IMG/VR virus record: IMGVR_UViG_2537561727_000005
Span: 1 to 12,516 of that record
Source of the DNA: a virus
Lineage: Duplodnaviria > Heunggongvirae > Uroviricota > Caudoviricetes
Reading direction: 5' to 3' (one strand)
DNA length: 12,516 nt
Positions within the stretch are counted from its first letter, which is position 1; the number at the start of each line of letters is the position of its first letter. The notes beneath the pieces were generated by a model. The model was not told the DNA's origin. It saw only the letters and a list, made by a program, of their open reading frames with translations, and did no database searches. Of the stretch, positions 4,833 to 10,784 are shown one piece after another. The translations under genes were made by a program, and so were the position numbers.

Positions 4833-5494
4833 ATATCTACGAAAGAATTGATGGCAGCAAATACCGAAATATTTGGGTAGCTGGCGACCTGCACGGATGC
4901 TACACGAACCTGATGAACAAACTGGATACGATTGGATTCGACACCAAAAAAGACCTGCTCATCTCGGTTGGCGATTTGGTTGATCGCGGTACAGAGAACG
5001 TCGAATGTCTGGAATTAATCACATTCCCCTGGTTCAGAGCTGTGCGTGGAAACCATGAGCAAATGATGATTGATGGCTTATCAGAGCGTGGAAACGTTAA
5101 TCACTGGCTGCTTAATGGCGGTGGCTGGTTCTTTAATCTCGATTACGACAAAGAGACTCTGGCTAAAGTTCTTGCCCATAAAGCAGAAGAACTTCCGTTA
5201 ATCATCGAACTGGTGAGCAAAGATAAAAAATATGTCATTTGCCACGCCGATTATCCTTGTAACGAATACGAATTTGGAAAGCCAGTTGATCCTCAGCAGG
5301 TAATCTGGAACCGCGAACGAATCGGCAACTCACAAGACGGGATCGTGAAAGAAATCAAAGGCGCGGACACGTTCATCTTTGGTCATACGCCAGCAGTGAA
5401 ACCACTCAAATTTGCCAACCAGATGTATATCGATACTGGCGCAGTGTTCTGCGGAAACCTCACATTGATTCAGGTACAGGGAGAAGGCGCATGA
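4829..5494 (+). CDS. Lambda-type Ser/Thr protein phosphatase (orf221/NinI family), intact 221 aa
   Basis: Near-identical to lambda phosphatase incl. GDLHG and GNHE metallophosphatase motifs; ATG overlaps ninG stop (ATGA). Confidence 0.95.
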
Positions 5495-5623
5495 GACTCG
5501 AAAGCGTAGCTAAATTTCATTCGCCAAAAAGCCCGATGATGAGCGACTCACTACTGGCCACAGTTTATTGGTTTTCGTAACTGAGTCATTTTATTATTTT
5601 ATTGCAACTTTTAATCTTTTATA

Positions 5624-5705: not shown

Positions 5706-6665
5706 TTAAAAAAAGAAGGTGATTGCTCCATTTATAAATGAATAGTCATCCCCTGTCTTGAATTCTGATGTTACTTTATTAAATGCTAGTGTGAAGGCTA
5801 CAGGTGCATACCCAATTGTTGCGCCAACTTGATATTCATCAACAGTTTTGTTTAGCGATACTGTTGTTTGTTTCGTCTGTATTGTTTTTCCTTCGAGAGT
5901 ATAGTTGCGATTGACATCTCGTCTTTCCATACCTGCAAAAATCTTGTATTTGAATCCGCTTGTATCGGACATATGCATTAAACCACGGGGAGCCAGCAGA
6001 CCAAAGCCATTATCCGAATTGAAGGTTTTATCATTACCAATGGCAATGGTTGCGCCATATGCTACATATTGAAATAAGTTTCCAGTAACAGCAGAAACTT
6101 CAGGGTATAATCCAACATTAGCACCTAAAATATCCATACTTGGTGTCATGGATAGCATCCCTTTTACAGTATAACCGTAGCGATTCTCTATTTGATCATC
6201 CCATGCATGATATTTTTCTGCCCCAATAATCTCATGAGCTTTATTTTGTACTTTCTGACCGCCTGCGTCGGGGCCAACAACACCTATGTCAGTACCTAAT
6301 CGATAGCGAATCCAGTCATTCGCAAGGGAGTTCCATTCAATACCAGTGTGAGTGTATGCACTAAAAGCTCTGTCTCCAGTTACAGCTGTGTTGTGTCTTT
6401 TATTACTGCCTGATGGAGAGTAAATATCTTGCGCAATATGGAGAGATAATTGGCTCGAGTCTGAGATATCGTGGCTATATCCCAGAAATAAGCCTTGTGA
6501 GTAATCATCTCTGTTTTCATGTTTATTGCCATAAATATCATTAAGTATTGGTTGAAACTTCCCTGCATCATCATTTGCTAATGATAATGCAAGGCTGTTC
6601 GCGATAGCTGAACACGTGGTAAATGACAGAGCAATAAAGACGCCAGCGATGACACTTTTTTTCAT
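5706..6665 (-). CDS. lpxR: Outer-membrane lipid A 3'-O-deacylase LpxR-like (319-aa precursor, 22-aa signal peptide, C-terminal aromatic beta-barrel signature ...AITFFF)
   Basis: Signal peptide with AIA cleavage motif; mature numbering places N9, D10, S34, K67, Q118 and H122 where I recall the Salmonella LpxR active-site residues; 319 aa equals Salmonella LpxR precursor length; gene is markedly AT-rich. Confidence 0.8.
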   Translation of the reverse strand: MKKSVIAGVFIALSFTTCSAIANSLALSLANDDAGKFQPILNDIYGNKHENRDDYSQGLFLGYSHDISDSSQLSLHIAQDIYSPSGSNKRHNTAVTGDRAFSAYTHTGIEWNSLANDWIRYRLGTDIGVVGPDAGGQKVQNKAHEIIGAEKYHAWDDQIENRYGYTVKGMLSMTPSMDILGANVGLYPEVSAVTGNLFQYVAYGATIAIGNDKTFNSDNGFGLLAPRGLMHMSDTSGFKYKIFAGMERRDVNRNYTLEGKTIQTKQTTVSLNKTVDEYQVGATIGYAPVAFTLAFNKVTSEFKTGDDYSFINGAITFFF

Positions 6666-7140
6666 ATGTTATTGTCTTCCTTTTTTTTGAATGGTGCGCG
6701 TATTTTACATACATGAGTTTGTAATACAAGGTGCGTAATCAATATGATGTTTTATAATTGCGTGAGACAATTGATTTATTCGTTTTTTATTGCGGTTTTT
6801 ATTATCTTTTAATGTAACAGTGTTTTTATTAAGTGTGTTTGCGTGGTGTTTTATGTTTTTTATAATTTTTATTTTATTAAATTTAAATGCATTAGTAATG
6901 GCTATTCTATATAGCAATATAAGAACTGTTACAAAAAAAGGGGGGGCAATTACAGGTAGTTATGGATGATGAGTGAAACAGATATTGGAGAACCGGGGAA
7001 TGAATGATGTCTGAGTCTTATATATCAGAACTCCTTCGCTGTCGCTGGGGGCTCCTGTGCTTATGTCGTTTCCCCGATTCGGTTTTGAACGATTACCGAA
7101 TGTTGAAGAATTATGCCAAAATATAGAAAGGATTTACTGC

Positions 7141-7830
7141 ATGAATACCCAATATTTACAGTATGTTCGTGAGCAACTTATGGCAGCTACTGCTGACTTG
7201 AACGGAGCAACGAAAGGCCAGCTCGAAGCCTGGCAGGAGCATGCACAATTTGATACTGGTACATACAAACGAAAGAAGCCGCGCATTCTGGATGTGGTAA
7301 CTGGCAAGATGATTACGCTGGATAATACGCCGACTTCCGGTAAGCAGTCGTACGCAAAAGGTTCATCCATTGCTTTGGTCAGCCCGGTTGAATTCTCAAC
7401 CTCTTCATGGCGCCGCGCGGTTTTGTCTCTCGATGAACATCAGAAAGCATGGTTGCTTTGGTGTTACAGCGAAAGCGTTCGATGGGGGCATCAGGTCACC
7501 ATAACGCAATGGGCATGGAGCGAGTTTAAGGATTTGTTAAGTAACAGAAAAATTGCAGGTAAGACACTGGATCGCCTGAAGACGTTAATCTGGCTGGCTG
7601 CACAGGATGTGAAGAGCGAACTTGCAGGGCGTGAGGCCTATGAATACCAGACACTGGCATCATTGGTGGGAGTGACAACAAAAAACTGGTCCGAGACATT
7701 TACTGAACGCTGGGTTGCAATGAAGCACATTTTTCTACAGCTTGATAGTGATGCTTTATTGCTTGTGACGAGAACACGTTCAAAACAAAAGGCAGCATTT
7801 TTACAGCAAAATATTGCAAAACTGGATTAA
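7141..7830 (+). CDS. Late-gene regulator at the Q position (putative Q-like antiterminator), 229 aa from ATG 7141
   Basis: Track ORF 7057-7830 starts at GTG; ATG 7141 has AAGGA 8 nt upstream; function inferred only from synteny (between nin region and lysis genes), I do not recognise the sequence. Confidence 0.5.
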   Translation: MNTQYLQYVREQLMAATADLNGATKGQLEAWQEHAQFDTGTYKRKKPRILDVVTGKMITLDNTPTSGKQSYAKGSSIALVSPVEFSTSSWRRAVLSLDEHQKAWLLWCYSESVRWGHQVTITQWAWSEFKDLLSNRKIAGKTLDRLKTLIWLAAQDVKSELAGREAYEYQTLASLVGVTTKNWSETFTERWVAMKHIFLQLDSDALLLVTRTRSKQKAAFLQQNIAKLD

Positions 7831-7875
7831 AAGCCATATACTTCATGCAAATTTGGTATGTTGTAAAAAATGTAT

Positions 7876-7902
7876 AAACCCGCTGCCGAGTGGGTTTTTT
7901 TT
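7876..7902 (+). terminator. Terminator-like hairpin 46 bp downstream of the Q-position gene (possible tR'-like element)
   Basis: AAACCC (7876-7881) / GGGTTT (7892-7897), 10-nt loop, followed by T-run to 7902. Confidence 0.4.
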
Positions 7903-8041
7903 ATGCCCCGAGTTGTACTTGTACGGTAAACATGCTGGCTGCTATGTAATAGAGTTTTTTTAGCCTGTAACCTCTTGACTGCATTGAATTGCTTTTGTTA
8001 TGAGTTGTAAGCCAATGTTATCATCTTGTATTGGGGTGGTT

Positions 8042-8758
8042 ATGAAGGATGGTGCGCTGCTCAGGAGTTCTTCACTTTTTATTGCCTACATGGGATGCCT
8101 TGGATGGGGGAGTGCTTATTTCTATGGATGGGGTACTTCTTTTTACTACGGCTTCCCATGGTGGATTGTAGGTGCAGGTGTTGATGATGTTGCCAGAAGT
8201 TTATTTTTTGCAGTTATCGTCATTGCTATATTTCTTATCGGTTGGGGTATTGGTGTTGTATTCTTTTTCGCAGTGAAAAGAAAACATTCTATGCAAGAGC
8301 TAAATGTATTTCGCCTTTATTTTGCTGTGGAATTATTGTTTGTGCCGGCAATTATTGAGTTTTCTATATTGAGACAAAAGATTCAGGTACCTCTTTTGCT
8401 ACTGTCAGCAGCGATTGCGCTGGCGGTTACAATTTCGATAAGATCTTATGGGCGATTTTTATCGGTATCATGCTTCTATGATAAGCCATTTATAAAAAAA
8501 CATTTTTTTGAGATTGTGATGATTGCTTTTGTGGCATATTTCTGGCTTTTTTCATTTCTGACAGGATATTACAAACCACAGTTTAAGAAAGAATATGAAA
8601 TGATTAATTATAATGATGGTTGGTATTATGTTCTTGCTCGTTATGATAATTGTCTGGTTTTGTCTACTTCTTTCAATGCAGGTAGTAAAAGGTTTGTCAT
8701 TTATCAATCAGCACAAGATAAGAATCTTCAGGTTGATATTGTAAGGACCAGAATTTAA
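8042..8758 (+). CDS. Polytopic inner-membrane protein of unknown function (238 aa from ATG 8042; about 5 hydrophobic helices rich in Trp/Tyr/Phe, roughly 70-aa soluble C-terminal domain)
   Basis: Long ORF with GGGGTGG upstream of ATG 8042; strongly AT-rich relative to flanking phage genes; hydrophobic segments read from translation. Confidence 0.75.
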   Translation: MKDGALLRSSSLFIAYMGCLGWGSAYFYGWGTSFYYGFPWWIVGAGVDDVARSLFFAVIVIAIFLIGWGIGVVFFFAVKRKHSMQELNVFRLYFAVELLFVPAIIEFSILRQKIQVPLLLLSAAIALAVTISIRSYGRFLSVSCFYDKPFIKKHFFEIVMIAFVAYFWLFSFLTGYYKPQFKKEYEMINYNDGWYYVLARYDNCLVLSTSFNAGSKRFVIYQSAQDKNLQVDIVRTRI

Positions 8759-9137
8759 TTGGCTGCATAAATAATATTTTAAGTTGCAAGTTGGCTATTC
8801 GTAGGAATAGAACCTTAGGCATGCTGAATGCGTTTCCTGAACATTGTTTTATAAACTGTGTCTGCTTGCTGTTGTGATCCTGCTTTTAGTGATGGTGATG
8901 ATGGATTTCACCAGCAGGATAATGTTGGTACTGACTGATGGCGCTCTGGTCTGCGGCATTGTGGTATTGCTGTGGCCGATGATGAAAGAACAGAATGAAT
9001 AATTCTTGACTTTTTTGTTTACTGTTTATTAAAAAATCAACCGCATGGTGAATCCTCCTTGGAGGGGCTAAATGATCGAGTTTTAAGGGCACGTAGCGAG
9101 TTCTGTTTGATCATTGCAGAACTTAGCGGGAGGCGCC

Positions 9138-9248
9138 ATGCGTACATCACTAATGTTATTTCCTTCTATCATTTTCCTTGTGAGTTCTGGCTGCGCATGG
9201 CGCGGCCTTTTTTTTATGACCTGCCACTGGCAGATGGTCATCCTGTGA
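9138..9248 (+). CDS. Candidate small hydrophobic peptide (36 aa, MRTSLMLFPSIIFLVSSGCAWRGLFFMTCHWQMVIL)
   Basis: ATG with GGGAGG Shine-Dalgarno 4 nt upstream; single predicted TM segment; not in ORF track (below 60 aa). Confidence 0.3.
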   Translation: MRTSLMLFPSIIFLVSSGCAWRGLFFMTCHWQMVIL

Positions 9249-9391
9249 TTTGATTCCGGTTCCGGCTTTTTAACTCTGTTCCTGTACACGGGAGAAATTC
9301 TATGTCGATTAATCGTTATGATATTGGTTACAAGAAGTACCACGTATTGTGTTGAGATAGAAAGCATGGTGCCAGAGGTAAATGCAGCAGC

Positions 9392-9444
9392 ATAATAAAA
9401 AAGAGCCAGCGCAGAAGAGAACGGGTAAAAGAGTCTGCGCTGGC
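9392..9444 (-). terminator. Strong rho-independent terminator (minus strand)
   Basis: Perfect 11-bp GC-rich stem GCCAGCGCAGA (9405-9415) / TCTGCGCTGGC (9434-9444), then U-tract TCTTTTTTATTAT (complement of 9392-9404). Confidence 0.75.
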
Positions 9445-9489
9445 GTGGGGATATTCCCCGTGGAGAAATGATATGTAACACACATCGGG
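9392..9489 (-). ncRNA. Candidate small RNA of about 98 nt with its own promoter and intrinsic terminator
   Basis: Minus-strand promoter TTGACA (9523-9518), 16-bp spacer, TATAGA (9501-9496); no credible ORF between predicted start (about 9489) and terminator; internal stem-loop GGGGA-ATA-TCCCC. Confidence 0.4.
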
Positions 9490-9495
9490 AACCTT

Positions 9496-9543
9496 TCTAT
9501 ATAAACATTATCATTATTGTCAATCATAACAGTCAGGTATTAT
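9496..9543. promoter_or_regulatory. Back-to-back divergent promoters with overlapping -35 hexamers (leftward for the sRNA, rightward toward the holin; rightward one is a candidate late promoter)
   Basis: Plus strand TTGTCA (9517-9522), 15-bp spacer, TATTAT (9538-9543); minus strand TTGACA (9523-9518), 16-bp spacer, TATAGA (9501-9496). Confidence 0.4.
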
Positions 9544-9560
9544 GACGTTTATGCATCAGG

Positions 9561-9595
9561 GCCATCAGGAATTAACTGGTGGCTTTTTATTGTTG
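9561..9595 (+). terminator. Rho-independent terminator just upstream of the holin (tR'-like)
   Basis: 8-bp stem GCCATCAG (9561-9568) / CTGGTGGC (9576-9583) with one G-U pair, 7-nt loop, followed by TTTTTATTGTTG. Confidence 0.6.
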
Positions 9596-9623
9596 TCAGC
9601 TTCCGGATAACGGGAGACGGGGT

Positions 9624-9839
9624 ATGTACCAGATGGAAAAAATAACAACAGGTGTGTCATACACCACGTCAGCGGTGGGGACGGGATACTGGCTACTGCA
9701 GTTGCTGGACAAAGTCTCCCCATCCCAGTGGGTGGCAATAGGCGTATTGGGTAGCTTGGTGTTTGGCTTGCTGACGTATCTGACAAACCTTTATTTCAAG
9801 ATTAAAGAAGATAAGCGTAAGGCTGCGAGAGGTGAATAA
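9624..9839 (+). CDS. S: Class II holin of the phage-21 S type (pinholin), 71 aa, with dual-start motif M-Y-Q-M (holin/antiholin)
   Basis: Close match to my memory of S21/EssD (…[51 protein letters not shown]); GGAGACGGGG upstream of ATG 9624; track ORF extends to GTG 9579, which lies inside the upstream terminator. Confidence 0.9.
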
Positions 9840-10117
9840 TGTCGCCATCATTACGCAAGGCTGTTGCTGCTGCTATTGGTGGTGGGGCTGTTGCCATAGC
9901 GTCTGTGCTCATCACTGGTCCGAGTGGTGACGATGGCCTGGAAGGTGTCAGCTACATACCATACGAAGATATCGTTGGCGTATGGACTGTATGTCACGGA
10001 CACACCGGAAAAGACATCATTCCCGGTAAAACGTATACCGAAGCAGAATGCAAAGCCCTCCTGAATAAAGACCTTGCCACGGTCGCCAGACAAATAAACC
10101 CGTACATCAACGTCGAT
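9839..10117 (+). pseudogene. R: SAR endolysin (phage-21 R type lysozyme) N-terminal fragment, about 93 codons, C-terminal half deleted
   Basis: N-terminal SAR segment ([20 protein letters not shown]) and catalytic Glu/Asp/Thr region match R21 from memory; homology stops at ...NPYINVDI where terminase A sequence begins. Confidence 0.85.
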
Positions 10118-10418
10118 ATATCGAACAGTCAGGTTAACAGGCTGCGGCATTTTGTCCGCGCCGGGCTTCGCTCACTGTTCAGGCCGGAGCCACAGACCGC
10201 CGTTGAATGGGCGGATGCTAATTACTATCTCCCGAAAGAATCCGCATACCAGGAAGGGCGCTGGGAAACACTGCCCTTTCAGCGGGCCATCATGAATGCG
10301 ATGGGCAGCGACTACATCCGTGAGGTGAATGTGGTGAAGTCTGCCCGTGTCGGTTATTCCAAAATGCTGCTGGGTGTTTATGCCTACTTTATAGAGCACA
10401 AGCAGCGCAACACCCTTA
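10118..10418 (+). pseudogene. A: Terminase large subunit gpA N-terminal fragment (codons about 3-100), fused in frame to the endolysin fragment
   Basis: [100 protein letters not shown] matches lambda gpA N-terminus. Confidence 0.9.
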
Positions 10419-10784
10419 TTCCAGGTTGTCCTGGGGGCTGCCGCCATTGCCGGATCATTCTTTACCGCCGGAGCCACCCTTGCAGCATGGGGGGCAGCCA
10501 TTGGGGCCGGTGGTATGACCGGCATCCTGTTTTCTCTCGGTGCCAGTATGGTACTTGGTGGTGTGGCGCAGATGCTGGCACCGAAAGCCAGAACTCCCCG
10601 TACACAGACAACGGATAACGGCAAACAAAACACGTATTTCTCCTCACTGGATAACATGGTTGCCCAGGGCAATGTTCTGCCCGTTCTGTACGGTGAAATG
10701 CGCGTGGGGTCGCGGGTGGTATCTCAGGAAATCAGCACGGCAGACGAAGGGGACGGTGGTCAGGTTGTGGTGATTGGTCGCTGA
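10419..10784 (+). pseudogene. I: Tail assembly protein gpI C-terminal fragment (about 120 codons), out of frame with the preceding gpA fragment
   Basis: [48 protein letters not shown]...GQVVVIGR matches lambda gpI C-terminus; stop at 10782-10784. Confidence 0.9.

What the first reader, a model, noticed from the sequence alone, without database searches (positions are those of the whole stretch)
8000..8758. AT-rich polytopic membrane protein moron at the late-promoter-proximal position
A 238-252 aa protein with about five hydrophobic helices unusually rich in Trp/Tyr/Phe/Gly (e.g. GWGSAYFYGWGTSFYYGFPWWIVGAG) and a roughly 70-aa soluble C-terminal domain sits between the Q-position gene and the holin. 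That is the slot where lambdoid phages carry late-expressed cargo such as Shiga toxin genes. Its base composition is far more AT-rich than the flanking phage genes, indicating separate acquisition. It is too large and multi-pass to be a holin and matches no family I recognise. Candidate roles are superinfection exclusion, abortive infection or an envelope-modifying function.
Basis: partly seen in the sequence, partly recalled or inferred. Interest (0 to 1): 0.6.

Follow-up and report, generated by a model that had tools for sequence, protein, structure and literature searches.

The report
STM1630-family membrane protein cargo gene
The ORF is a real, AT-rich cargo gene for a five-pass inner-membrane protein of the catalogued but functionally unknown STM1630 family, which recurs beside toxin and effector genes on the prophages, plasmids and islands of enteric pathogens.

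Summary
Window 8000-8758 (+) contains a real gene. Homologues and a conserved promoter put its start at 8042, giving 238 aa. The protein has five predicted TM helices and a C-terminal beta domain of about 55 aa. GC is 36%, against 46% for Q and 47% for the holin. dN/dS is 0.08-0.20.

The claim that it matches no family is wrong. It is 100% identical to phage 434 gp68 and corresponds to Sakai ECs_0816. It belongs to PHROG 1521 and Pfam PF27470 ("TfpB"). Recent PGAP annotation calls it "STM1630 family protein". It is 46% identical to Salmonella STM1630.

The family is single-gene cargo, not phage-specific. It lies just downstream of Q in lambdoid prophages with several different Q genes, in one case directly upstream of stx2k. 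It also lies next to eltAB on ETEC plasmids, on Shigella virulence plasmids, beside sseJ in Salmonella, and alone in Pasteurellaceae and Neisseriaceae chromosomes.

No function is known. No PDB structure is related and no defence model matches. STM1630 is H-NS-bound, SPI-2-co-regulated and reported as a gut-colonisation factor.

My best inference is a periplasm-facing envelope or host-colonisation factor. Here it would be expressed from its own promoter and by Q read-through. Interest is moderate.

The parts
7141..7830 (+). Late antiterminator Q, Q82 type (PGAP start; the mechanical ORF begins at 7057)
   Evidence: Pfam PF06323, E = 1.7e-91. PHROG 304. PGAP CDS. 91% nt identity to phage 82 Q.
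7814..7842 (+). pR'-like late promoter (TTGCAA, 17-nt spacer, TATACT) overlapping the 3' end of Q
   Evidence: Consensus scan. Its position relative to Q and the terminator is as expected for a lambdoid late promoter (inference).
7876..7905 (+). tR'-like intrinsic terminator ending a leader RNA of about 55 nt; Q must read through it
   Evidence: Terminator scan. Hairpin fold with z = -2.9. Annotated as a terminator at the same place in phage 434.
7975..8004 (+). Candidate gene-linked sigma-70 promoter: -35 TTGACT at 7975-7980, 18-nt spacer, extended -10 TGtTATGAG at 7996-8004
   Evidence: The block CTTGAC-N18-TGnTA(T/C) is conserved upstream of the gene in five loci with different surroundings: this window, a Stx2k phage, an ETEC LT plasmid, the E. 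coli 582 island and an NleG prophage. Promoter function is inferred, not shown.
8042..8758 (+). STM1630-family gene: 238 aa, five TM helices and a C-terminal SH3-like beta domain (the finding)
8844..9002 (+). DUF3927 small membrane protein, probably co-transcribed; not a constant partner of the family
   Evidence: Pfam PF13064. PHROG 1470. Absent next to family members in ETEC, Shigella, Salmonella and the Stx2k phage.
9189..9217 (+). First strong intrinsic terminator downstream of the gene
   Evidence: Terminator scan. Annotated as a terminator in phage 434.
9624..9839 (+). Class II (P21-type) holin, the start of the lysis cassette
   Evidence: Pfam PF04971, E = 2e-32. PGAP annotation.

Best explanation
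Window 8042-8758 encodes a 238-aa inner-membrane protein of the STM1630 family (Pfam PF27470 'TfpB', PHROG 1521).

Shown:
- It is a conserved gene under purifying selection and is AT-rich.
- It travels as a single-gene unit between lambdoid prophages (the slot immediately after Q), ETEC enterotoxin plasmids, Shigella virulence plasmids, E. coli islands, the Salmonella steB-sseJ islet, and Pasteurellaceae and Neisseriaceae chromosomes.
- No partner gene is conserved next to it.

Predicted:
- Topology is N-terminus in, five TM helices, C-terminus out.
- This places three conserved elements on the periplasmic face: the loop after TM1 (YGWG..YYGFPWW), the D-D/N-x-A-R-S motif at the start of TM2, and the C-terminal SH3-like barrel.

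Inferred:
- The protein acts alone at the periplasmic face of the inner membrane, binding a conserved envelope component or membrane machine.
- It serves the bacterium during host colonisation rather than serving phage lysis or assembly.
- In this defective prophage it would be made from its own H-NS-sensitive sigma-70 promoter (7975-8004). In an intact phage it would also be made in bulk when Q reads through tR' from pR', in the same way as stx.

The biochemical activity remains unknown.
For: Identity and family:
- PHROG 1521, E = 2e-154.
- All homologues carry PF27470, which is named TfpB.
- PGAP names it 'STM1630 family protein'.
- It is 46% identical over its full length to P0075. P0075 is STM1630: a deletion primer in the PMC6785131 supplement encodes NSSMLLAYLGGLGWG, and the gene there is 717 bp and lies next to sseJ. 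The synteny is also seen in L008.
- It is 100% identical to phage 434 CPT_434_68 and corresponds to Sakai ECs_0816.

Real gene: dN/dS is 0.08-0.20.

Mobility and context:
- After a different Q family in Yersinia.
- Between Q and the tRNAs plus stx2k.
- Divergent from eltAB and near the STb gene on ETEC plasmids.
- On 106 Shigella plasmids, for example pWR501 between virA and spa40.
- In an IS-rich island beside a PapG-like gene.
- In the H. ducreyi, Mannheimia, Neisseria and Gallibacterium-like chromosomes, each with different neighbours.
- A related phage has an empty Q-to-holin slot.

Topology: across 68 aligned sequences, mean K+R is 1.4, 2.6 and 3.8 in the N-terminus and loops 2-3 and 4-5, against 0.0 and 0.9 in loops 1-2 and 3-4. 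The AF2 model has pLDDT 81.

Expression:
- pR' and tR' lie upstream.
- The promoter block is conserved with the gene, including in loci that have no Q.

Biology of the orthologue STM1630:
- It is H-NS-bound, expressed in SPI-2-inducing medium and in macrophages, and its promoter is inactivated in invasive ST313.
- Mutants are reported as attenuated in calves and chickens, and deletion raises intramacrophage replication in strain 4/74 (PMC6785131 supplement).
- It is co-regulated with SPI-2 (PMC2639726).
Against: - No biochemical or genetic function has been shown for any family member.
- The STM1630 phenotypes are modest and partly inconsistent. Hypermotility in one screen (PMC4219756) was not among the phenotypes confirmed with clean deletions (PMC4534456). 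The apparent essentiality in transposon screens is attributed to H-NS binding.
- The association with virulence loci could simply reflect co-residence in AT-rich, H-NS-silenced mobile DNA.
- The repeated placement right after Q in phages with three or more different Q genes could instead indicate a phage-cycle function.
- The topology and the promoter are predictions.
- The structural search found no informative relative, so the 'binding module' idea rests on the conservation pattern only.
Confidence: 0.45

Rival explanations
1. Superinfection exclusion or another anti-phage function. The periplasm-facing inner-membrane protein would block DNA entry of incoming phages, either in the lysogen or late in infection.
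For: - It is prophage-borne and is the first gene after Q in several unrelated late operons.
- A polytopic inner-membrane protein with a periplasmic domain is a common design for exclusion proteins (general knowledge).
- It appears to have its own promoter, which would allow expression in lysogens.
- It is a single-gene, highly mobile unit.
Against: - No PADLOC model matches.
- Many members are stable chromosomal genes outside any prophage or defence island. Examples are Salmonella across subspecies at the same locus, H. ducreyi, Neisseria and Mannheimia.
- STM1630 is regulated with virulence genes.
- The near-invariant N-terminal motif across genera fits a conserved bacterial ligand better than fast-evolving phage targets.
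Confidence: 0.15
2. Immunity-like protection against membrane-damaging bacteriocins or contact-dependent toxins. It would be an orphan polytopic immunity protein carried on mobile elements of gut and mucosal bacteria.
For: - It is an autonomous single gene with no partner, is polytopic, and its conserved residues face the periplasm.
- It is restricted to animal-associated Enterobacterales, Pasteurellaceae and Neisseriaceae.
- The neighbouring DUF3927 protein falls in a PHROG labelled 'TciB-like ... resistance to colicin'.
Against: - No toxin gene is linked in any context examined.
- The protein is larger than known pore-forming-colicin immunity proteins (general knowledge).
- Sequence conservation is high, whereas immunity proteins usually diversify.
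- The PHROG label of the neighbour is only an annotation.
Confidence: 0.1
3. Accessory factor of the lysis or toxin-release programme. It would be a holin-like or antiholin-like membrane protein, or a channel, that tunes lysis timing or helps release neighbouring toxins (Stx, LT).
For: - It sits at the head of the late operon, upstream of the lysis cassette.
- Family members lie next to stx2k and eltAB.
- TM1 is rich in small-residue (Gly/Ser/Ala) motifs of the kind seen in oligomerising helices (sequence).
- Weak local Foldseek resemblance to the TM-helix-plus-beta-domain unit of MscS.
Against: - A canonical holin, endolysin and spanin set is present separately.
- Members in Salmonella, Shigella plasmids and Pasteurellaceae have no lysis genes nearby.
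- The MscS hits are not significant (E > 1, probability <= 0.2), and there is no MS_channel Pfam hit.
- The gene is tolerated when expressed in Salmonella.
Confidence: 0.08
4. Type IV pilus accessory protein, as the Pfam name TfpB suggests. It would work like the TfpY/FimB pilin-accessory proteins that promote pilus assembly.
For: - The Pfam family label is TfpB.
- From memory, unverified: tfpB is an ORF in the Moraxella pilin-inversion region.
- The taxa that carry the family (Neisseriaceae, Pasteurellaceae, Enterobacterales) possess type IV pili.
- TfpY-like proteins have a similar length (235-245 aa) and are also N-in membrane proteins with periplasmic beta domains (PMC11841053).
Against: - No pilin or pilus gene is adjacent in any of about 15 different contexts examined.
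- TfpY-like proteins are described with three TM helices and two beta-sheet domains. This protein has five TM helices and one small barrel.
- No Moraxella TfpB or TfpY/FimB protein was recovered in three homologue searches or in the 1.8-billion-protein profile search.
Confidence: 0.07
5. Not a real gene: a chance ORF in AT-rich spacer DNA.
For: None beyond the lack of a known function.
Against: - A 238-codon ORF in 36% GC DNA.
- dN/dS of 0.08-0.20.
- More than 100 homologue clusters of the same length across several genera.
- A confident AF2 model.
Confidence: 0.01

Closest known systems
Salmonella Typhimurium STM1630 (SL1560), the name-giving member of NCBI's 'STM1630 family protein'
   Same: 46% identity over the full 238 aa, with the same five-TM-plus-beta-domain layout and the same near-invariant N-terminal motif. 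Both are AT-rich single genes next to secreted virulence proteins.
   Different: STM1630 is a fixed chromosomal gene between steB and sseJ. Its own promoter lies about 200 nt upstream, and its upstream sequence does not align with the one here. The window copy is prophage cargo placed behind a Q-dependent late promoter. Function is unknown in both.
Phage 434 gene CPT_434_68 ('putative membrane protein') and O157 Sakai Sp3 ECs_0816 ('membrane protein')
   Same: The phage 434 protein is identical and lies in the same slot after the Q82-type Q, followed by the DUF3927 gene. ECs_0816 occupies the same position after Q in Sakai prophage Sp3, and the equivalent stretch of a Sakai-like O157 strain is 99.2-99.8% identical in DNA.
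   Different: Phage 434 is an intact phage and still carries the SASA/NanS-p esterase between this module and the holin. That esterase is deleted in the window. Those annotations start the CDS at the equivalent of 8015 (247 aa).
Shiga-toxin genes and other cargo of the Q-to-S interval of lambdoid phages
   Same: The same insertion slot and the same expected expression logic: read-through from pR' by Q, plus a local promoter. In one Stx2k phage a family member and stx share the slot.
   Different: This is a membrane protein, not a secreted toxin. It is also common outside phages.
TfpY/TfpZ/FimB type IV pilin accessory proteins
   Same: Similar size. Both have a cytoplasmic N-terminus, TM helices and periplasmic beta structure. 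The Pfam label TfpB hints at a pilus link.
   Different: TfpY-like proteins have three TM helices and two beta domains and are always encoded downstream of a pilin gene. Here there are five TM helices, one small barrel and no pilin neighbour in any context (see the membership test).

Membership tests
STM1630 family / Pfam PF27470 (TfpB) / PHROG 1521 | Significant full-length sequence match to the family profile or to its members | tested here: met
   PHROG 1521, E = 2e-154, covering 222/222 profile positions. PF27470 is precomputed on the identical protein P0001 and on all homologues. 46% identity to STM1630 (P0075) over 238 aa. PGAP names the protein accordingly. The local Pfam-A and NCBIfam copies lack the model, so there was no direct HMM score.
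STM1630 family / Pfam PF27470 (TfpB) / PHROG 1521 | Shared architecture: about 236-250 aa, five TM helices, a conserved A-Y-x-Y-G-W-G...Y-G-x-P-W-W loop, a G-Y-x-(K/R)-P junction and a C-terminal beta domain with Y-Y-(V/I)-L | tested here: met
   Alignments A2, A3 and A4, conservation table, AF2 model.
Moron (Hendrix-type extra gene in a phage genome) | Present in some phages but absent at the same position in close relatives | tested here: met
   PhiR47_2 has an 89%-identical Q followed directly by the holin. In 434B the whole Q/late-promoter/lysis region (~5.5 kb) is replaced by syntenic DLP12 prophage DNA (PMC9119081); the gene lies inside the region of phage 434 annotated as non-homologous to 434B.
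Moron (Hendrix-type extra gene in a phage genome) | Base composition different from the neighbouring phage genes | tested here: met
   36.1% GC against 46-53%. All alleles are 30-39% GC whatever the host.
Moron (Hendrix-type extra gene in a phage genome) | Own promoter and own terminator allowing expression from the repressed prophage | tested here: inconclusive
   A promoter-like block is conserved with the gene in five contexts. There is no terminator directly after the gene; the first is at 9189-9207, after the DUF3927 gene. No transcript data were available for this locus.
Holin | Small protein (usually under 150 aa) with 1-4 TM helices and a charged C-terminus, encoded next to the endolysin | tested here: not met
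   238 aa, five TM helices and a folded beta domain. No holin Pfam or PHROG hit. A genuine class II holin lies at 9624-9839 next to the lysozyme.
TfpY/FimB-like pilin accessory proteins | Three N-terminal TM helices followed by a mixed beta sheet (beta2-alpha-beta3) and a second antiparallel beta sheet | tested here: not met
   The description comes from PMC11841053. The model here has five TM helices and one five-stranded barrel. No direct profile comparison was possible because no TfpY sequence was held.
TfpY/FimB-like pilin accessory proteins | Encoded immediately downstream of a major pilin gene | tested here: not met
   No pilin gene appears in any neighbourhood examined.
Known anti-phage defence systems (PADLOC-DB v2) | Match to a defence-protein model | tested here: not met
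   No hit at E <= 0.1. Exclusion activity itself cannot be tested with these tools.
MscS-like mechanosensitive channels | MS_channel domain (pore helix TM3 plus beta domain plus alpha/beta domain) | tested here: not met
   No PF00924 hit. Foldseek MscS matches have E > 1 and probability <= 0.2. The positive-inside analysis puts the beta domain in the periplasm, the opposite of MscS.

The most novel reading that the evidence does not exclude
The STM1630 family is a new functional class. It would be a self-sufficient, periplasm-facing inner-membrane protein with a fold absent from the PDB, spread repeatedly alongside toxin and effector genes (stx2k, eltAB/STb, the Shigella virulence plasmid, sseJ/steB, Nle prophages). 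The reason for the spread would be a specific contribution to virulence-associated envelope physiology, for example toxin or effector release, or protection of the envelope in the gut. A previously unrecognised single-gene exclusion or immunity function is also not excluded.
Probability: 0.2. Interest if true: 0.7.

Novelty: already known. Interest (0 to 1): 0.4.

Why it matters
About a fifth of complete E. coli genomes carry a copy of this gene: 1196 of 5426. So do essentially all Shigella virulence plasmids found (106), many ETEC LT plasmids and most Salmonella enterica (cluster P0075 has 2681 member sequences). No member has a known activity or a related solved structure.

The gene sits in the same late-operon slot as Shiga toxin. 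In an intact phage it would therefore be strongly expressed on prophage induction.

The Salmonella orthologue is regulated with SPI-2 and has been reported as a gut-colonisation factor. Its promoter was lost in invasive ST313.

A defined function would explain a recurrent, unexplained passenger of enteric virulence elements. As it stands, the finding is a correctly spotted but already catalogued gene of unknown function, not a new system.

Tried and rejected
- Local Pfam-A, NCBIfam and PADLOC scans, and a PDB sequence search, gave no hit.
- The first AF2 model, built from 43 close homologues, was poor (pLDDT 62), and its Foldseek hits were noise. Adding Neisseriaceae, Pasteurellaceae and second-subfamily sequences raised pLDDT to 81.
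- Foldseek against the PDB gave nothing below E = 0.9. The local hits were SH3-like barrels (HIV integrase CTD, KorB-C) and MscS. I take from this only that the C-terminal domain is a small SH3-like barrel.
- The AFDB Foldseek library was unavailable.
- I tried to trace the Pfam name TfpB to Moraxella or to pilin-accessory proteins. Neither the literature searches nor the homologue and profile searches recovered such a member. The pilus hypothesis was therefore kept only as a low-probability rival.
- Rfam and tRNA scans of the window were empty. The PasD sRNAs reported near Q and lpxR (bioRxiv 10.64898/2026.05.13.724894) were not located.
- The hypermotility reported for an STM1630 mutant is not used as evidence, because clean deletions did not confirm it.
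- A holin role and a chance ORF were rejected for the reasons given in the membership test and the rival explanations.
Full report
**The window.** It is part of a defective lambdoid prophage of E. coli. Its DNA is 100% identical over 7800-9600 to strains such as FORC 064 and 99.8% identical to O157:H7 and O55:H7. In Sakai the corresponding element is prophage Sp3. The region between bet and ninG is missing, the lysozyme is truncated, and the packaging and head genes are mostly gone.

**The observation.** The mechanical ORF 8000-8758 (+) encodes 252 aa. PGAP usually starts it at 8015 (247 aa, WP_001302581.1, 'hypothetical protein'). Three results point to ATG 8042 (238 aa) instead:
- Nearly all full-length homologues are 236-238 aa and align from that methionine.
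- The most recent PGAP annotation uses it (WP_001299184.1).
- A promoter-like block that travels with the gene covers 7975-8004, so the upstream ATGs fall in or at the edge of the promoter.

The protein is 10.9% Phe, 7.1% Tyr, 2.9% Trp and 6.7% Gly. A second AlphaFold2 model, made with a 68-sequence alignment, reached pLDDT 81 and pTM 0.75. It shows helices 10-36, 47-79, 84-111, 116-137 and 155-181, followed by five beta strands at 184-235.

GC content is 36.1% (GC3 30%). Q is 46%, the holin 47%, and the tail genes 53%. dN/dS against seven homologues is 0.08-0.20. The corrections are a start at 8042, a C-terminal domain of about 55-60 aa, and a DUF3927 gene plus remnant DNA between this gene and the holin.

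**Surroundings.** Q (7141-7830) is of the phage 82 type. A consensus-like promoter (TTGCAA-17-TATACT, 7814-7842) overlaps its 3' end. A strong hairpin with a U-run follows at 7876-7905, at the place annotated as a terminator in phage 434. This is the expected pR'/tR' arrangement, so the gene is the first ORF of the Q-dependent late transcript.

Downstream lie a DUF3927 gene (8844-9002), a terminator (9189-9207), about 300 bp that replace the 2.27-kb SASA/NanS-p esterase of phage 434, and then a class II holin (9624-9839) and a truncated lysozyme.

A phage with an 89%-identical Q has the holin 310 bp after Q with nothing in between. The whole block is therefore inserted cargo.

**Identity.** The local Pfam-A, NCBIfam and PADLOC libraries and the PDB sequence search gave nothing. 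The protein is nevertheless not an orphan:
- It matches PHROG 1521 at E = 2e-154.
- Every homologue in the 5.8-billion-protein collection carries the precomputed Pfam family PF27470, whose name is TfpB.
- New RefSeq annotation calls it 'STM1630 family protein'.
- It is 100% identical to phage 434 CPT_434_68, 'putative membrane protein' (genome paper PMC9119081). Sakai annotates the corresponding gene as ECs_0816, 'membrane protein'.
- The cluster P0075 (2681 member sequences, 46% identical) is Salmonella STM1630. The deletion primer published for STM1630 encodes NSSMLLAYLGGLGWG, and the gene is listed as 717 bp next to sseJ. The synteny SBP-DUF1294-sseJ-gene-frmRA is seen in S. diarizonae.

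**Distribution.** The family is a mobile single gene.
- *Prophages.* It follows Q in E. coli phages 434 and 2B8, which carry different Q genes. It follows a PF06530-type Q in Yersinia. It occurs in an NleG/EspJ prophage. In a Stx2k phage it lies between Q and the tRNA-stx2k cassette.
- *Plasmids.* It lies 0.9 kb from eltA, divergently oriented, and near the STb gene on ETEC plasmids. It is on 106 Shigella plasmids, for example pWR501 between virA and spa40.
- *Islands.* It lies beside a PapG-like gene in E. coli 582, and as a pseudogene beside iroB in ATCC 25922.
- *Chromosomes.* It is a stand-alone gene in H. ducreyi, Mannheimia, Avibacterium, Gallibacterium, Actinobacillus and several Neisseriaceae, with unrelated neighbours each time. 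A second subfamily occurs in Klebsiella, Enterobacter and Mangrovibacter.

In E. coli, 1196 of 5426 complete genomes have some allele. No partner gene is conserved and no pilin gene was ever adjacent. All alleles are 30-39% GC and are AT-richer than their flanks, with the smallest difference in Pasteurellaceae.

**Structure and topology.** Across 68 aligned sequences, the N-terminus and loops 2-3 and 4-5 carry on average 1.4, 2.6 and 3.8 Lys+Arg. Loops 1-2 and 3-4 carry 0.0 and 0.9. This gives an N-in, C-out topology with the beta domain in the periplasm.

The best-conserved positions are A15, A25, Y26, G31, G37, P39, G175 and Y195, together with the D-D/N-x-A-R-S motif at the start of TM2. 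They lie in TM1 or on the predicted periplasmic side.

**What is known about the family.** Only STM1630 has been studied, and only marginally. According to the supplement of PMC6785131:
- Its function is unknown and it lies between the effector genes steB and sseJ.
- It is absent from S. Typhi and it binds H-NS.
- It is expressed in SPI-2-inducing medium and in macrophages.
- Two SNPs in the -10 element silence it in all ST313 isolates.
- Signature-tagged mutants were attenuated in calves and chickens.
- A clean deletion in strain 4/74 replicated better in macrophages.

It clusters with SPI-2 in regulator-mutant transcriptomes (PMC2639726). A hypermotility phenotype was not among those confirmed later.

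**Mechanism.** The following are shown or strongly supported:
- The gene is conserved and selected.
- It is predicted to be a five-pass inner-membrane protein.
- It acts without a linked partner.
- It is cargo, not part of the lysis cassette.

The following are inferred:
- It works at the periplasmic face, through the aromatic/glycine loop and the SH3-like barrel, on a conserved envelope component.
- Its pay-off is fitness in the animal host.
- It is H-NS-silenced and de-repressed with virulence regulons.
- In an intact phage, Q read-through would add a burst of expression on induction, as for stx.

I give this 0.45. The rivals are superinfection exclusion (0.15), bacteriocin immunity (0.10), lysis or toxin-release accessory (0.08), pilus accessory as the Pfam name suggests (0.07) and chance ORF (0.01).

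The pilus idea fails two defining features of the TfpY/FimB family as described in PMC11841053. That family has three TM helices with two beta domains, and its genes follow a pilin gene.

**Verdict.** The 'cargo in the stx slot' reading is right. The claim that there is no family is wrong, and the anti-phage roles are not favoured. The gene is already catalogued (phage 434, Sakai, PHROG, Pfam, PGAP) but has no known function. Its recurrent position beside toxin and effector genes in EHEC, ETEC, Shigella and Salmonella makes it a reasonable target for experiments, but it is not a new system. Interest 0.4.

Noticed in passing
window 5706-6665 (-): An LpxR-family lipid A 3'-O-deacylase gene (Pfam PF09982, 39% GC). 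It is a second AT-rich cargo gene on the other side of Q, transcribed against the phage genes. It corresponds to lpxR (ECs_0814) in Sakai. [quoted passage not shown]
   Followed up: partly
window ~4371; 5491-5562; 9839-10784: The prophage is heavily deleted. A bet fragment abuts a ninG fragment, so the immunity and replication region is gone. A remnant of a lambda-type Q precedes lpxR. The lysozyme is cut at about 10120, and the ORF 9839-10618 also contains a terminase gpA fragment. The C-terminal part of tail protein gpI follows at 10515-10784.
   Followed up: partly
window 9327-9629 versus phage 434 locus L003 6285-8554: The 2.27-kb SASA/NanS-p-type esterase gene lies between this module and the holin in phage 434. 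In the window it is replaced by about 300 bp.
   Followed up: partly
window 9083-9481 (-): PGAP annotates a 132-aa hypothetical protein here. It overlaps the + strand terminator at 9189-9207 and the esterase deletion scar, and it is probably spurious.
   Followed up: no
window 7849-7905 (+): The short leader between the pR'-like promoter and its terminator would give a terminated RNA of about 55 nt, the same kind of product as the terminated pR' transcripts of other lambdoid and Stx phages. PasD sRNAs are reported near Q and lpxR in such prophages (bioRxiv 10.64898/2026.05.13.724894), but I did not locate them. Rfam found nothing in the window.
   Followed up: partly
L011-L015 (ETEC plasmids), L033 (Stx2k phage), L029 (pWR501): Family members lie next to eltAB and the STb gene, directly upstream of the tRNAs and stx2k, and between virA and spa40 on the Shigella virulence plasmid. 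The copy next to LT may be a trace of a phage late-region origin of the LT locus. That is speculation.
   Followed up: partly
window 8844-9002 (+): A DUF3927 small membrane protein, placed in a PHROG labelled 'TciB-like inhibition of cell division or resistance to colicin'. It accompanies this allele in 434, 2B8, Sp3 and an NleG prophage, but it does not accompany other family members.
   Followed up: partly
L005 (JAIITD010000172.1): A 3-kb contig binned as a Veillonella MAG carries a 100%-identical copy of the gene. This is most likely mis-binned E. coli prophage DNA.
   Followed up: no
window 6666-7140: A very AT-rich (33% GC) intergenic stretch between lpxR and ylcG/Q. It was not examined for regulatory elements or sRNA genes.
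   Followed up: no
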